From positions 588,932 through 652,931 of the forward strand of contig NW_019217791.1 in assembly GCF_002571385.2 (NCBI RefSeq): DNA of 64,000 bases, written 5' to 3'. Made by a program: the position numbers. Source of the stretch: Stylophora pistillata. Lineage: Eukaryota. This document shows, piece after piece, positions 42,701 through 48,700 of the stretch. Positions within the stretch are counted from its first letter, which is position 1, and each line of letters starts with the position of its first letter.

Positions 42701-45700
42701 GAACCAAGCCTCAAATAGCTCCAGCCCTCATGAATTCAATACGAACTATTCAATCCGAAAGTAGTGTGTCGACATAACTAGGGTTATTATCATCGAAACC
42801 TTGTGAGTGGGACAGCAGAGGCAATAACTCTTAGATAATTTTCCTATTTTCTGTTAGGTTCTGAACAACAAAGTCTAGTGTAGACTCTGACTACTCAACC
42901 AGACAGACAAGCCCTCAATTTACCGTTCGACGAACTCTTTCAGAGAGACTAGCCCCCATTCTCTACTTGCTTATGCAAAGAGTCCCATTTTACAAATCGT
43001 ACATCGGAGTGTATCTTACCAGGAGCCTGGTCTTCCGGATAGGATGTAGCAGCGATTGTGGAGAACAAATCCAGGGAAAGAGATCGCCTCTTCGCAACTT
43101 TATTGAAATGGTTTACCAAGGGGTTCTTATCTCTGTGGTTCTGTCTTTTCTCTTTACCACGGCGATTTTGGAACCAAACTTACATAACTCGCATATCAAG
43201 CCCAGTCACCTCGGAGACCCTGAGCTGCGGCGCTCGGCCAAATCAGGGTGAGGGGTACTCAGGTAAACTGATTTCAGTATTTTCAGCTGTTGAGCTGTAA
43301 TAAACGTGCGTACTCGCTTGCCCTTGATGGATGGAGATTCGCAGGTTGATGACGGGTTGCAGTCTCCTGAAATCGTAATTAAGACGGTGGCTGCCAACAT
43401 TTTACGCAAAGAAAATTAAATTTTATTCCATCTTATAAATTTCAGGGATCAACAGCAACATCAATTGCCATCCACTGAGACATTATTCATTCATATACAG
43501 AGAGGTTCCGTTCGGATTTATTGAAACGACTTCGAGTTAAAGTAAAACTTTAATTTTTCTGTGTGGCACAAAATGTCTAAGCGTGACGCAGGTGGTGTGG
43601 GGCCTACGATCGAGGTGCATTATTTTCAAACATTTCAAAAATAGTGGCGTTTCGAAGAGTAATGTTTCAAGTCCATTTTTCCCTAATGCCAAGCTATACG
43701 GATGAGAAGAAAACTGGAATTTGAAGATAAACCCGTCCTCAATAATTTAGAGCTTCTGACTTCTGTATTTACAAGTTACATTTTCGTATTTTGTAGTACG
43801 AATGAGGGGACCTATTTTCGATAGTGCAGATCTGTTAATTGCTCCTGATTTTTTTTTTCTTTTTTTACTTTTTCTTTCCTGCACTAGACAAAAAAGTGCA
43901 CCTAATTATTTCCTTTGGGTAGGACTAATCACTGAGTCGATCACACCTCAGGGCACCTCTCGCTATTTCTCCGAATACTGCGTTTGAAGTTGATGGTTTT
44001 TGGCTTTGCGAAGTTATGGACCCTGATATTGTTTGCTCGTACAAAGTTCGAATCCAGTCACCCAGCCTTTAACGGTATCGGAGAAATTGTAACCGATTTG
44101 GCTGAGAATTCAACGGTTAATCCCCGACTTTACATAAGCAGCAATGAGCAAAAGAATGCATTTTGGCAGTACTGGGAATACTCCAGGTAAAAAAGTTCAA
44201 GGAACAATTGGAAAGCAACGTCGAACTGAAACGGACCAGTTCGAAGGGGTTTGATTTCGAGTGTAAGCACCTCTCTTTGTAGTACCATGCGACCCGAAGA
44301 ATGGTTAAGAGAAGAAACGTCAGTATTGGTTGAGCACATGGCCCTGTTTTGGGAAGGATCACACGCCAATGGCTAGCCAATTTTTCATAATCAAAGTTTC
44401 TTGGAGACTTGCGCTAAGTCGATTGTGGATGACTTCAACAGCCTGGTTTTTTTTTTTTTCTTATTTTCACGCTTGTTCTCTTTCCCCTCTCTTTCCAATT
44501 CTATGCTTTTTACCAAATGTCACGGTTCCTCTCACTTTCGAATTTTGAAGTTAAGAAGAATTCCAAGATTTAGTATATATGTCGATCATCGAAAAGCAAA
44601 ATTGTATCACCTCAGCCGCTCGCAAAATTGAAACACCTCGGCTGATTTCAGGTAAAAAGCCTCCAGTTTTAAAACGTTGGAACAAAATCTAGACCAAAAT
44701 TATGAGCTTGTGTGATACCTTCGATCTTCTAGTCTCTATAGTGTGACCTTTAACGTTCCTCTTGTTCAGCAATCTTTCTGGGAAGGGCCGGAATTCCAGC
44801 AAAGACAACAAACGGTTTCACGCAATTTTATTTGAAATTGGAATAAAAAGATTTAACTCTTACAATAAGAAAACAAAAAATGCAAGAAAATGGGGTTAAG
44901 AAACGCCTCAAGGTGGTTTAATTGGTGAAACCAATCTGCATCCAGTCACTAAATTGTACCTTTCGGATTGATCAGCTGCAATTCGCTGGATACTTATCGT
45001 CAAAGACTTGTGTGACCAGCAAAAAACGTTTACAGCAGCCGTTTTTCCTTTAAAGCGGCTAATAAAAGTTTTTCTTTTCTCTCCTTTAAATACAGAAACG
45101 AGGAATTCACGCCAATCTCACTCGCGCGGAGGTCAAATAGAAATGAGCTCGAGATAGCAGTTGTCCCAGCACACACCGCGGTCGCAGGCCGCACACCACC
45201 TGAGCGTGACGATAATTTAATTAAATAGGAATATATGTGACGGCTTGGGTACAATTCAAAGATTGAAGTGAAGTAATTAATACATCACAGTTTTCAGGTG
45301 GCTCCTAATTACTCTACCCAAGTCTTTCTTTCTGGAAATCATTACATTCTTTAGAGTTATTTGTAGGGTAATGAGATGTTTTGTTTGAATAATCTATCGC
45401 TGAGGTGTCTTACTTGTACAGGTTTATGGTTATTTCTTTTAATCGCTTTTGACTGATACAAGGCCTAATTTCCATAAGATTTAAAAAATCAAACAATAAA
45501 GAGCTCTTCCAATTTTTACGATTTCACTTCTTCATTTATTGAGAACAAAACGACTTGAAATGATATCCTGCACGCTAACCCGGTTATTGTTAAACTTAAT
45601 AAAGACTATTAAGAACAAAGAAGTAGTAAAACTAAGCAAAACAGGAAAATCAGGACGTATTTACGACTAATTTCCGCATAAGTGGAGGCAGTGTGGCCGA

Positions 45701-48700
45701 GTGGTTAGAGTGTCGGACTCGTAATCCGCCGCTCCCGGGTTCGAGTCCCACCCTGACCACTAGATTTGTTTCACGGTAGCCCCGTGTTCAGATCCTTGGC
45801 CACGCTTGTAAATAGCCAACTGGTTTGCCTCCGGCCGGTTGGGGTTCTTAATGATGTTATGTTCAATTTAGACCATTTGTTTCATTTGTTTGCAAGGACC
45901 ACAATGGAAACTACTGGTTCACCAGTAATTGTGTAATCCTATAAAAAGACTTTTTTTTTTTTTTTTCAATAGTGTTATCCGAAAATATTTCCTTTTCAAC
46001 ATTGTCATTTGGGTTTTTTACATGGATTGTCAACATGGGTGTATTTGAAACATAACTTATCCTGGAAAGATTTCAAATCTGTTTATTTGATCGATTTCTA
46101 TTCTAACATGTATTTTTAAAGTCCTTTTTAACCAGGTCAGTCGTTTTTTGTAATCATAGAAACATTTTTTCCACTTGATAAGTTGGAATCACTTATAATT
46201 CTGAGTTCATGTTTAAGCAAATTAATTAATCACTATTGTAACTTACCATTAGCCTACCTGAACATTTGCCTTCATCAAGGTCCTGTTTGCAGATTACCCT
46301 GCCGTCTTCCAGCAGATAAAACAGGTCGCCAGTTGAAAGCTGTCTTTTACAGGAGACACAAGAAAAGCAGGTGATGTGGTAAACTTTGTCCTTGATTTTT
46401 TTCACGCTCTGGTGAGGGGAGATGCCATCGTGGCAAATCGAACAGGCTTCACTGTATCGACTGTCAACAAAATAACGAAGAGGCAATTCTTAGCGCCAAT
46501 TTGTGCATTGGGTGGGGAATTGAACTGAAGCCAACAACTGATCAAAATCCTTTCATCAGTAAACTGAAAAAATTTTTCCAGAGGGAAACATTCCCAAAAG
46601 CTTATGACTGCCTAGAAAGGAACTTAATTATTAAGTCGAACAGATTAATTTTTGTCAATTAAATAATACTCGTTGTCCATTAACATCCTCTCCCTTCCTT
46701 AGACATTCACTCAATGCTGATTGACTCAGGGTCAGATGGTTTGAAAAGTTGACGACAAGGATTTACTTTCTCTAGTTCAAAATAACAGTCGTTTGAAAAA
46801 TTTAAAGTGAGCCATATTACTCATTTTGAACTTCAACAAAATAAGCCAGGTTAAAACTTGTAAACCTTAACTCTCAAGTCGTCCGTGAAGTTTTTGCATT
46901 AGGGTGAGACAACCCTCCGGAACGCTTAACGATATTGAAGAAGGAAAAAAGTATACGTCTGGCTTTGGCAGGTGAAAAGACTATTTTAACAATAGTGAAC
47001 ACTTCATGAATTTGGTAGAGTACCTCAAAAGTTTGTATTTTGCGTTAATGAGGATAATTTGTATAGTAAAGTAAGAACCGTGGGACTAATTCCCAAACCA
47101 TGATTGATATAATTTGTAAATTGTGAATGCGTCGAAAGAATAAAAAACGATTGAAAATGGCCACATGTTAATAGCTACAAATATCTCCAAAAATGTTTTT
47201 AGAATAGTTGTACTCTCAAGTAACATCAATCAGACATACGTGATACTCTGACGCAATTACTGCTTACCGGAAAAAATCTATTTGGCAGAGAATGTCTCCA
47301 TCACGGAAGAAACACGTTCCTTCATCGAGCGTTTCTCTGCAGTCACAACAACGCAGGCAGTACACATGCCACAGTTTGCCCAATGCCTGAAGAAGATACT
47401 TGTCCCGGATATCCTCCTTGCAACCACCGCACTTTGAATAAAAACGATTTTCTGTACCTATGAGGACAAAAATGAACGACCGAAGAGGTTCAATTAAGCA
47501 CAGGTGTGCTGACCGCCTTCACGCACATTTGAACAGCCTTTCATGTTTTTTTTTTTTTTTATGTCTATGTTCGTTCTTTTTAACCGAATATCGCGTTTTC
47601 GTCAGCAGAAAAAAGAAAAAAACCTGCCATGTAATCAGACCTAATTCATACATTAACCAAATGATTATTAACATGAAGATCGTGAATGTCTTCTGCCTAG
47701 TACGTATACAAACAGAGCAAGTCAGAAGTAAAAATTTGCACTTGGTCAGGAGCCCACCATTAACGAGCTCCTGGCTCCATCGCGAATGCACACTCCTACG
47801 TAAAATCACAAAACTTGATTCTTTTGCTGAATAAAAAGCAAGGTTTTCCGAAAATTATAAAACAGCGGTAGCTACGTGCATTGTGAACATGACATACGAT
47901 TTGCGCTTTCTGCCATCCAAACGTATCCTTAATCCAAGTAACAGAAAGATAATTCCACAAATGATGCGTTTGGCGTTCAGATCACCAATCTGTTCCTCCC
48001 ACAGTGGAAAACAAGCATTTCAATTGGATACCTTTTTAAAATGAACAAACAAGAGTTCAGGTAGGACGATGTTCATACAAATGGCTAACACCAAAAGCTT
48101 ACACTCAAAATTATCATTTCTTTAAATTATTTGTTTTGCATGCGAAAAATAGTTTGAAATCATAGACCAAAGCGGATGAACTGGTATTTTGTTCAACACA
48201 CACTGTGTCAGTGAATAAATATAACCTAATGGCTCCATGCAGATGTTCATGCGATTCTGATCTGGGATGGACACCGGGTTAGATCAAGGAAATATTTCAA
48301 GTTGTTTTTCGTACATCTGAGTGGTGAAAAGGCTGTAAAGCCCCTTCTCACTTCCCCTCAGGTAGCTGTTTCTTTTCAGTTGACAAAAGTAGATGAAGGA
48401 TCGAAATAAATAGGTTTGGGATAAATGAAGGCTAATAGCAAACTTTATATCAAGTCAATCCCACCGGGTAAAAAATATCACGAAATCGGAATATCCTGTG
48501 AAAAATTCATAATACATACTCGCATTGTTTTCGGCCATCATAAAGATCAATTTAAAGTTATTTCCACAGGCGTCCAAGCTTTGCAAAAAGCACAGTTGAT
48601 ATTTGTGCGATCCTATTTATGTTTAAACGCTCCAGCAGTCGGGGTCAATAAGAGAGACTGAGAGTTCCAGCACTACATTTGAATAACAGACCAGCCGTTT

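What the first reader, a model, noticed from the sequence alone, without database searches (positions are those of the whole stretch)
43020..47457. Lhx3/4-like gene with two hits in the homeobox but perfect LIM domains: pseudogene or new LIM-only antagonist
Seen: 5 extra bases (CGCAG, 43229-43225) in helix 2 shift the frame to TGA at 43208-43206, and the Gln codon before VWFQNRR is TAA. All 16 zinc ligands, the frames and the splice sites of the LIM exons are intact. The predicted product is ~205 aa: LIM-LIM plus half a homeodomain. Known: LIM-only proteins (LMO) compete with LIM-HD factors for Ldb/Chip. Inference: either recent loss of a conserved neural transcription factor or its conversion into an LMO-like dominant negative. 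Two different lesions, neither in a homopolymer, make simple sequencing error less likely. The stop is 186 nt upstream of a junction, so NMD is possible.
Basis: partly seen in the sequence, partly recalled or inferred. Interest (0 to 1): 0.75.

Follow-up and report, generated by a model that had tools for sequence, protein, structure and literature searches.

The report
Decaying Lhx3/4-like gene in a coral
A stony-coral copy of a LIM-homeobox (Lhx3/4-like) developmental gene carries three separate disabling mutations and evolves faster than its intact relatives, so it is most likely an ordinary dying gene and not a new LIM-only regulator.

Summary
On the minus strand lies a five-exon Lhx3/4-like LIM-homeobox gene. 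Its closest relatives are stony-coral proteins, so I do not take the contig for human. Five extra bases (43229-43225) shift the homeobox frame to a TGA at 43208-43206. The Gln codon before VWFQNRR is TAA (43182-43180). Both LIM domains keep all 16 zinc ligands, and every splice site is canonical.

All 10 relatives that cover the homeobox exon have it intact.

On its own branch the window copy has 32 private amino-acid changes against 15 in its sister (p=0.019). The excess is about as large in the LIM exons (7 v 4) as downstream (25 v 11). In the homeobox-exon tree its branch is 0.18 against at most 0.017 for the sister.

Intact 733-, 493- and 479-codon ORFs in the same window argue against general assembly noise. 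Lesion-free LIM exons are expected by chance about 20-30% of the time.

Verdict: a non-processed pseudogene (about 0.8). A LIM-only antagonist is not excluded but has no positive support. Lhx3/4 was already lost in Hydra. Interest is low.

The parts
48520..48538 (-). Exon 1. ATG at 48538-48536, with a second in-frame ATG at 48541-48539. It encodes MAENNA plus the first base of a split codon. The donor is GTATGT at 48519.
   Evidence: Read. It has the same length and phase as the N-terminus of the Oculina patagonica relative P0006. Assigned by eye, because it is too short for a search.
47268..47457 (-). Exon 2, the LIM1 domain. All 8 zinc ligands are present.
   Evidence: searches (Pfam LIM, E=6.8e-17; best solved structures Lhx4/Lhx3/Isl1), 56, and 49 (acceptor AG, donor GTAAGC).
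46258..46460 (-). Exon 3, the LIM2 domain. All 8 zinc ligands are present.
   Evidence: Pfam LIM, E=6.6e-16; best Lhx4 at 2.7e-25, Lhx3 at 1.3e-20.
43020..43366 (-). Exon 4, the homeobox exon. It is 347 nt, or 342 without the extra bases, and is phase 1 at both ends. It carries lesions 1 and 2.
43225..43229 (-). Lesion 1: five extra bases between homeodomain residues 30 and 31. The same 5-base excess can be placed anywhere within 43229-43220.
   Evidence: The alignment to 10 relatives, which have AER(H/L/E)RI here without a shift, is.
43206..43208 (-). Premature TGA reached after lesion 1. It lies 186 nt upstream of the exon 4 / exon 5 junction.
43180..43182 (-). Lesion 2: TAA at homeodomain position 45. 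This position is Gln in all 10 relatives (RVVQVWFQN).
41976..42416 (-). Exon 5, the C-terminal region shared with the coral relatives. The ancestral stop is TGA at 41978-41976. The acceptor is gtaAG and weak.
42114..42117 (-). Lesion 3: four extra bases between ...LSKIN and TPVDERYF. They lead to TGA at 42105-42103 in the exon's own frame.
   Evidence: (two tblastn pieces in different frames).

Best explanation
This is a non-processed pseudogene: it keeps its introns and has decayed in place. It derives from the anthozoan Lhx3/4-like LIM-homeobox gene, in a stony-coral genome. The ancestral gene encoded LIM1-LIM2-homeodomain-C-terminal tail in five exons.

In this lineage selection on the whole gene was relaxed. 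Since then it has picked up a 5-base insertion in homeodomain helix 2, a CAA-to-TAA-type nonsense change at homeodomain position 45, a 4-base insertion in the last exon, and about twice as many amino-acid replacements as its sister lineage. Those replacements are spread evenly over LIM2, the homeobox exon and the tail.

Any transcript would end at the TGA at 43208-43206, 186 nt before the last junction. It would probably be degraded by nonsense-mediated decay. The intact LIM domains and splice sites reflect the short time since inactivation, not retained function.

Shown here: the three lesions, the gene structure, the intact relatives and the faster replacement rate. Inferred: loss of function, decay of the transcript, and the rough timing (inactivation perhaps a third to a half of the way back along the window's own branch). 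I could not decide whether this is the only copy in the genome or a duplicate.
For: 1. Three independent lesions of two kinds: two insertions and one nonsense substitution.

2. The homeobox exon is open and has Gln45 in 10 of 10 relatives that cover it: P0005, P0126, P0127, P0006, P0066, P0128, P0142, P0203, P0007, P0010.

3. Relative-rate count on the triplet window / P0005 / outgroup P0006, done exon by exon: 32 window-private changes against 15 P0005-private changes over 362 sites, binomial p=0.019.

4. In a maximum-likelihood tree of the homeobox exon alone, the window's end branch is 0.18. Its sister group (P0005/P0126/P0127) has 0.017 or less.

5. The window-lineage change rate is flat across regions: LIM2 7/67, HD first part 3/46, HD second part 9/67, tail 9/99 and 4/44. 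In the intact Oculina lineage the tail changes about 2-3 times faster than LIM and HD.

6. An internal control argues against assembly noise. The same window holds uninterrupted ORFs of 733, 493 and 479 codons. At 3 lesions per 785 nt, a 2199-nt ORF would stay intact with P=2e-4.

7. A non-coding benchmark: flanking intron and 3' sequence, read as pseudo-translation against read-through ORFs of the sister group, differs at 32 of 99 positions. That is 15/28, 5/23 and 12/48, my own count on the alignments. The coding divergence of the broken exons (14/67, 16/99, 11/44) approaches this level.

8. Context from a paper read as passages (PMC2828406): Hydra lost Lhx3/4, and the Nematostella Lhx3/4 gene was not found expressed by RT-PCR. 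This class therefore appears dispensable in parts of Cnidaria.
Against: - LIM1 shows 0 window-private changes in the 39 sites that could be polarised. Fisher against the other regions gives p=0.035, uncorrected for six regions. This could be residual constraint.
- All 16 zinc ligands, the start codon and all splice sites are intact.
- All three lesions lie at or after the homeodomain, which is the pattern a retained LIM-only product would give.
- The LIM-only comparison (7 v 4) is not significant on its own (p=0.55). One of the 4 sister changes is probably the sister ORF's artificial start.
- No nucleotide sequence of relatives was available, so no dN/dS could be computed.
- I could not see reads, transcripts or the rest of the genome.
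- The outgroup choice rests on few taxa, and the clade window + P0005 group has support 85/81.
Confidence: 0.8

Rival explanations
1. The gene has become a functional LIM-only (LMO-like) protein. The roughly 190-aa product (LIM1-LIM2 plus homeodomain helix 1) is made. It binds Ldb/Chip through its LIM domains and competes with full LIM-homeodomain factors. Everything downstream of the first stop decays freely.
For: - All three lesions lie at or after the homeodomain.
- 16 of 16 zinc ligands, the ATG and all splice sites are intact.
- LIM1 has 0 of 39 private changes, p=0.035 uncorrected.
- Solved structures of the closest LIM pairs (Lhx3, Lhx4) are complexes or fusions with Ldb1 or Isl peptides.
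- A precedent of kind exists: vertebrate Lhx9a/b lack homeodomain helix 3 and were proposed to act like LMO, although the paper says this is not shown (PMC9310833, passages).
Against: - LIM2 has 7 private changes in 67 sites, the same rate as the dead downstream part. Two of them are at positions kept in all relatives and in Lhx3/4 (G3S, R20K of the exon).
- The acceleration factor of the LIM exons equals that of the rest (Fisher p=0.73).
- Intact LIM exons are expected by chance with P about 0.2-0.3.
- The stop lies 186 nt before the last junction, which by the usual rule marks the mRNA for decay. The rule is recalled and was not tested in corals.
- No matching protein of 119-2000 aa appeared.
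Confidence: 0.07
2. The lesions are real but not fixed. The assembled haplotype carries a null allele, and an intact allele or an intact second copy does the work in the same species.
For: I could not look at the other haplotype, other individuals or the rest of the genome, so nothing excludes it. The assembly has gaps (N at 1202 and 3268-3500).
Against: Three lesions and 32 v 15 private replacements, with a branch of 0.18 in the homeobox exon, mean a long time without constraint. That is unlikely for a young segregating null allele. A diverged second copy would still leave this locus a pseudogene.
Confidence: 0.08
3. This is an assembly or sequencing artefact, and the true locus is an intact Lhx3/4-like gene.
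For: The third lesion sits in an A/T-rich stretch. The scaffold contains gaps.
Against: - The lesions are insertions of 5 and 4 bases and a substitution, none in a homopolymer.
- ORFs of 733, 493 and 479 codons are intact in the same window (P=2e-4 to 4e-3 at the lesion rate seen here).
- Errors would not raise amino-acid replacements twofold across all exons.
Confidence: 0.04

Closest known systems
Lhx3/Lhx4 class of LIM-homeodomain transcription factors (vertebrate Lhx3/Lhx4, fly Lim3, the anthozoan 'Lhx4-like' genes)
   Same: - Two N-terminal LIM domains are followed by a homeodomain.
- The best solved-structure matches for both LIM exons are Lhx4 and Lhx3.
- The sister protein P0005 retrieves almost only proteins that their sources name Lhx3 or Lhx4 among the 120 listed.
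- Named coral and anemone relatives are called Lhx4-like: Porites lutea, Actinia tenebrosa.
   Different: - The homeodomain here is split by a frameshift and holds a stop, so no DNA-binding helix 3 can be made.
- The anthozoan group is itself divergent from bilaterian Lhx3: KRVRTF instead of KRPRTT at the start of the homeodomain, and its own C-terminal tail.
- I built no tree that includes the other five LIM-homeobox classes.
Loss or silence of Lhx3/4 elsewhere in Cnidaria (Hydra loss; Nematostella gene not detected by RT-PCR; PMC2828406)
   Same: The same gene class is dispensable or lost in another cnidarian lineage (passages read).
   Different: Here the loss is caught in progress in a scleractinian, while at least eight other coral-like sequences keep the homeobox exon intact. 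I did not see that paper's supplementary tables.
LMO proteins (LMO1-4, fly Beadex/dLMO)
   Same: The only open product would be two LIM domains with short flanks. LMO2 and LMO4 are among the weaker solved-structure hits.
   Different: It is derived from a LIM-homeobox gene and is not an LMO orthologue. No evidence of constraint, expression or Ldb binding was obtained here.
Truncated-homeodomain isoforms of LIM-homeobox genes (Lhx9a/b, an Lhx8 variant; PMC9310833)
   Same: LIM-LIM plus a homeodomain lacking helix 3. A dominant-negative role has been proposed (passages).
   Different: Those are conserved alternative splice forms with their own C-terminal peptide, made beside the full-length factor. 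Here the truncation comes from mutations and no full-length form can be made from this locus.

Membership tests
LIM-homeodomain factor, Lhx3/4 class | Two tandem LIM domains, each with eight zinc ligands in the canonical spacing | tested here: met
   Pfam LIM E=6.8e-17 and 6.6e-16. The ligand pattern was found in both exons, 16 of 16.
LIM-homeodomain factor, Lhx3/4 class | A complete 60-residue homeodomain in one open frame | tested here: not met
   Homeodomain positions 1-31 and 33-57 lie in different frames. TGA is at 43208-43206 and TAA at position 45.
LIM-homeodomain factor, Lhx3/4 class | Closer to Lhx3/4 than to other LIM classes | tested here: met
   By best hits only. For LIM2, Lhx4 scores 2.7e-25 and Lhx3 1.3e-20, against Isl1 2e-15 and LMO2 1e-13. 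The sister P0005 retrieves almost only proteins named Lhx3 or Lhx4. No tree with all six classes was built.
LIM-homeodomain factor, Lhx3/4 class | Expressed and binds DNA and Ldb | not testable with these tools
   No transcript or read data for this genome were at hand.
Non-processed pseudogene | Homologue of a functional gene that keeps the parental intron-exon structure | tested here: met
   There are five exons with GT-AG introns. The exon ends match the spliced sister protein P0005, and intron flanks match read-through ORFs P0126/P0127.
Non-processed pseudogene | Disabling lesions absent from relatives | tested here: met
   Three lesions. The homeobox exon is intact in 10 of 10 relatives. 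The last-exon site is intact in P0005, P0006, P0009, P0136 and P0227.
Non-processed pseudogene | Relaxed constraint along the whole gene | tested here: inconclusive
   Overall 32 v 15 private changes, p=0.019. LIM exons alone give 7 v 4, p=0.55. LIM1 has 0 of 39. Protein-level only, with no dN/dS.
Non-processed pseudogene | No functional transcript or protein | not testable with these tools
   There is only a weak negative: no near-identical protein of 119-2000 aa.
LMO (LIM-only) proteins | Orthology to LMO1-4/Beadex | tested here: not met
   Lhx4 and Lhx3 score better than LMO2 and LMO4 for both LIM exons. The locus also has homeobox and tail exons of the Lhx4-like gene.
LMO (LIM-only) proteins | LIM pair kept by purifying selection and binding Ldb/Chip | tested here: inconclusive
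   Selection: there is no difference between LIM exons and the dead part (Fisher p=0.73), but power is low. Binding was not tested.

The most novel reading that the evidence does not exclude
A LIM-homeodomain gene caught turning into an LMO-like gene. The first frameshift removed the DNA-binding helix. The LIM1-LIM2 product is still made (escaping decay, or from a transcript that ends early). It is kept, LIM1 above all, as a competitor for Ldb, while the homeobox and tail rot. That would be a natural example of how LIM-only regulators can arise from LIM-homeobox genes.
Probability: 0.07. Interest if true: 0.7.

Novelty: new member of a known kind. Interest (0 to 1): 0.22.

Why it matters
If this reading is right, the locus is one more lineage-specific loss of a developmental transcription factor. 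Two points give it modest value.

- It adds a scleractinian case to the pattern that the Lhx3/4 class is expendable in cnidarians. Hydra lost the gene, and the Nematostella gene was not detected by RT-PCR (PMC2828406).
- It warns annotators that this locus should be flagged as a pseudogene and not modelled as a short LIM-only protein.

It would matter more only if the LIM-only product proved to be expressed and under selection.

Tried and rejected
- **Second copy in the window.** tblastn of both LIM exons against the window found only the locus itself.
- **Different genetic code or read-through.** I considered that TAA might be read as Gln. I rejected this because the gene is an animal LIM-homeobox gene, the relatives have plain Gln there, and the frameshift upstream already stops the frame.
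- **GTAAGT at the TAA as a splice donor.** Rejected because VWFQNRR follows directly in frame, as in the relatives.
- **Alternative placement of the 5 extra bases** (reading AER-R-R-V). This is possible. Either way the excess is 5 bases.
- **First tree of the homeobox exon.** It mixed in read-through flanks, so I discarded it and rebuilt it on the exon columns only.
- **Names or origins of the unnamed relatives.** I did not try to find their samples.
- **Protein Atlas for the 733-aa ORF.** Closed. Pfam and solved structures gave nothing for it.
- **Literature on LIM-only isoforms.** One search gave only unrelated LIM-only papers. One search (homeobox, pseudogene, coral, Acropora, Lhx) listed nothing on a coral Lhx pseudogene among the 10 of 48 papers shown, judged by title and abstract only.
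- **Not attempted.** The exon-by-exon rule applies, and my preferred reading does not claim binding.
- **Collections without relevant data.** The bacterial genome collection and the phage, plasmid and E. coli collections hold no coral DNA, so I did not use them.

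
Full report
**What the window is.** It is AT-rich eukaryotic DNA (GC 0.36-0.45) with two N runs, at 1202 and at 3268-3500. Both are far from the finding and I left them untouched. The nearest relatives of the gene are stony-coral proteins, from Oculina patagonica and Porites lutea, plus unnamed transcript and contig ORFs. 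I therefore do not take the contig for human.

**Checking the observation.** I read 42800-47700 on the minus strand and translated each exon in three frames.
- The LIM1 exon (47457-47268) and the LIM2 exon (46460-46258) are open. Each matches Pfam LIM strongly (E=6.8e-17 and 6.6e-16). Each has the full C-C-H-C-C-C-C-D ligand set, 16 of 16.
- In the homeobox exon (43366-43020) the frame that encodes the start of the homeodomain runs into TGA at 43208-43206.
- The remainder of the homeodomain is in another frame, offset by five bases at 43229-43225, and has TAA at 43182-43180 where the relatives have Gln.
- Pfam sees homeodomain positions 1-31 in one piece and 33-57 in the other.
- The stop lies 186 nt before the exon end.

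**Full anatomy.** Mapping the relatives onto the window with tblastn, reading the flanks and printing the junctions gives a five-exon gene.
- E1 is 48538-48520. It encodes MAENNA plus one base, has donor GTATGT, and has the same length and phase as the Oculina N-terminus.
- E2 is LIM1, E3 is LIM2, and E4 is the homeobox exon.
- E5 is 42416-41976, a C-terminal tail conserved among the coral relatives.
- All introns are GT-AG. The last acceptor is weak.

Four extra bases at 42117-42114 split the tail into two frames and give TGA at 42105-42103.

Adding the per-exon pieces gives about 190 aa for the open product. All searches were done exon by exon, and that joined step is left out.

**Relatives.**
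- The LIM2 exon found a 366-aa protein, P0005, at 87% identity, Oculina at 79% and Porites at 73%.
- P0005 in turn retrieved almost only proteins named Lhx3 or Lhx4 from across animals, plus an Actinia tenebrosa 'Lhx4-like' protein.
- The second homeobox piece, with X at the stop, found two read-through ORFs of the homeobox exon from the P0005 group (P0126, P0127) and one more distant (P0128).
- The all-against-all representative search added P0142, P0203, P0136 and P0227.

In 10 of 10 relatives that cover the homeobox exon, the frame is open and position 45 is Gln. No named Acropora, Pocillopora, Stylophora or Orbicella protein of 201-641 aa appeared. I cannot tell whether that is loss, missing annotation or a limit of the search.

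**Is the LIM part protected?** For each exon separately I counted changes private to the window, private to its sister P0005, and private to the outgroup Oculina.

| Part | Window-private | P0005-private |
|---|---|---|
| All 362 sites | 32 | 15 |
| LIM exons | 7 | 4 |
| Rest | 25 | 11 |

- Over all sites the difference gives binomial p=0.019.
- One of the 4 sister changes in the LIM exons is probably the sister ORF's artificial start.
- The LIM exons and the rest do not differ (Fisher p=0.73). The LIM exons are accelerated as much as the part that is certainly dead.
- Per region the window-lineage rate is flat: LIM2 7/67, HD 3/46 and 9/67, tail 9/99 and 4/44. The exception is LIM1, with 0/39 (p=0.035 against the rest, one of six regions, uncorrected).
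- In a maximum-likelihood tree of the homeobox exon alone, the window's end branch is 0.18 against 0.017 or less for the sister group. The joint clade has support 85/81.
- As a rough neutral yardstick, intron and 3' flanks read as pseudo-translation differ from the sister group's read-through ORFs at 32 of 99 positions (my count on the alignments). The broken exons approach this level: 14/67, 16/99 and 11/44.

**Chance and artefact.**
- At the lesion density of E4+E5 (3 in 785 nt), the 412 nt of E1-E3 would be lesion-free with P=0.21. Three lesions placed at random would all fall in E4+E5 with P=0.28.
- Sixteen ligands would all survive with P about 0.06-0.34 at the observed change rates.
- 'Perfect LIM domains' is therefore not a surprising state for a young pseudogene.
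- Against assembly noise, the window holds intact ORFs of 733, 493 and 479 codons. At the same lesion rate these would survive with P of 2e-4 to 4e-3. Errors would also not double amino-acid replacements.

**Mechanism and comparison.** The best reading is a non-processed pseudogene of the anthozoan Lhx3/4-like gene. No DNA-binding helix 3 can be made, and by the usual 50-55-nt rule (recalled, not tested in corals) the transcript would be a target of nonsense-mediated decay.
- It fails the membership test for a working LIM-homeodomain factor, because the homeodomain is not open.
- It is not an LMO orthologue.
- Vertebrate Lhx9a/b and an Lhx8 variant are the nearest known 'LIM-LIM plus truncated homeodomain' proteins. 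They are conserved splice forms, and their proposed dominant-negative role is itself unproven (PMC9310833, passages).
- Hydra lost Lhx3/4, and the Nematostella gene was not found expressed by RT-PCR (PMC2828406, passages; supplements not seen). Loss of this class in a cnidarian is therefore not unexpected.

**What stays open.**
- I could not see reads, other individuals, the rest of the genome, transcripts or any relative's nucleotide sequence. Fixation, copy number, expression and dN/dS are untested.
- The listing of cluster members and the Atlas were unavailable.
- The LIM1 conservation is the one observation that leans towards the LIM-only idea.

**Verdict.** The finding is ordinary, and interest is low.

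Noticed in passing
window 1-846 (+): A tandem array with a 247-bp period, 3.4 copies, 100% identical. Each copy carries a tRNA-Thr(AGT) gene (153-225, 400-472, 647-719). The array runs off the window start.
   Followed up: partly
window 45687-45758 (+), inside the intron between the LIM2 and homeobox exons: ARAGORN calls a tRNA-Thr(CGT) antisense to the gene, but it does not reach the Rfam tRNA gathering score. It could be a tRNA-derived repeat or a decayed tRNA.
   Followed up: partly
window 12723-12794 and 20261-20332 (+): Single tRNA-Arg(CCG) and tRNA-Trp(CCA) genes, found by both ARAGORN and Rfam.
   Followed up: no
window 18931-23063 (-) and 60422-61903 (+): Retroelement remains. ORFs on the minus strand match integrase core and RT-RNase H, split over several frames. 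A 493-codon ORF matches reverse transcriptase.
   Followed up: partly
window 30365-32566 (-): An uninterrupted 733-codon ORF with no Pfam family (E<=0.001) and no solved-structure relative. Its nature is unknown.
   Followed up: partly
window 33465-33977 (-): A 170-codon ORF with a weak death-effector-domain match (24.6 bits, below the Pfam cut-off of 35.9). It may be an exon of a neighbouring gene.
   Followed up: no
window 8111-8996 and 29609-30093: Tandem repeats of 178-bp period (about 5 copies, 81-85% alike) and 107-bp period (4.5 copies, 95% alike).
   Followed up: no
P0007 (Porites lutea 'Lhx4-like') against window 47494-47458 and 43394-43367: Parts of the Porites protein model align to what is intron sequence in the window, just upstream of the LIM1 and homeobox exons. 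That public model probably reads through intron ends.
   Followed up: no
window 43366-43020 (-): The homeobox exon is phase 1 at both ends and would be 342 nt without the extra bases. Skipping it would therefore keep the reading frame into the tail exon. No transcript data were available to see whether this happens in any species.
   Followed up: no
window 1202 and 3268-3500: N runs of 1 and 233 bases: assembly gaps or masking. Left as they are.
   Followed up: no
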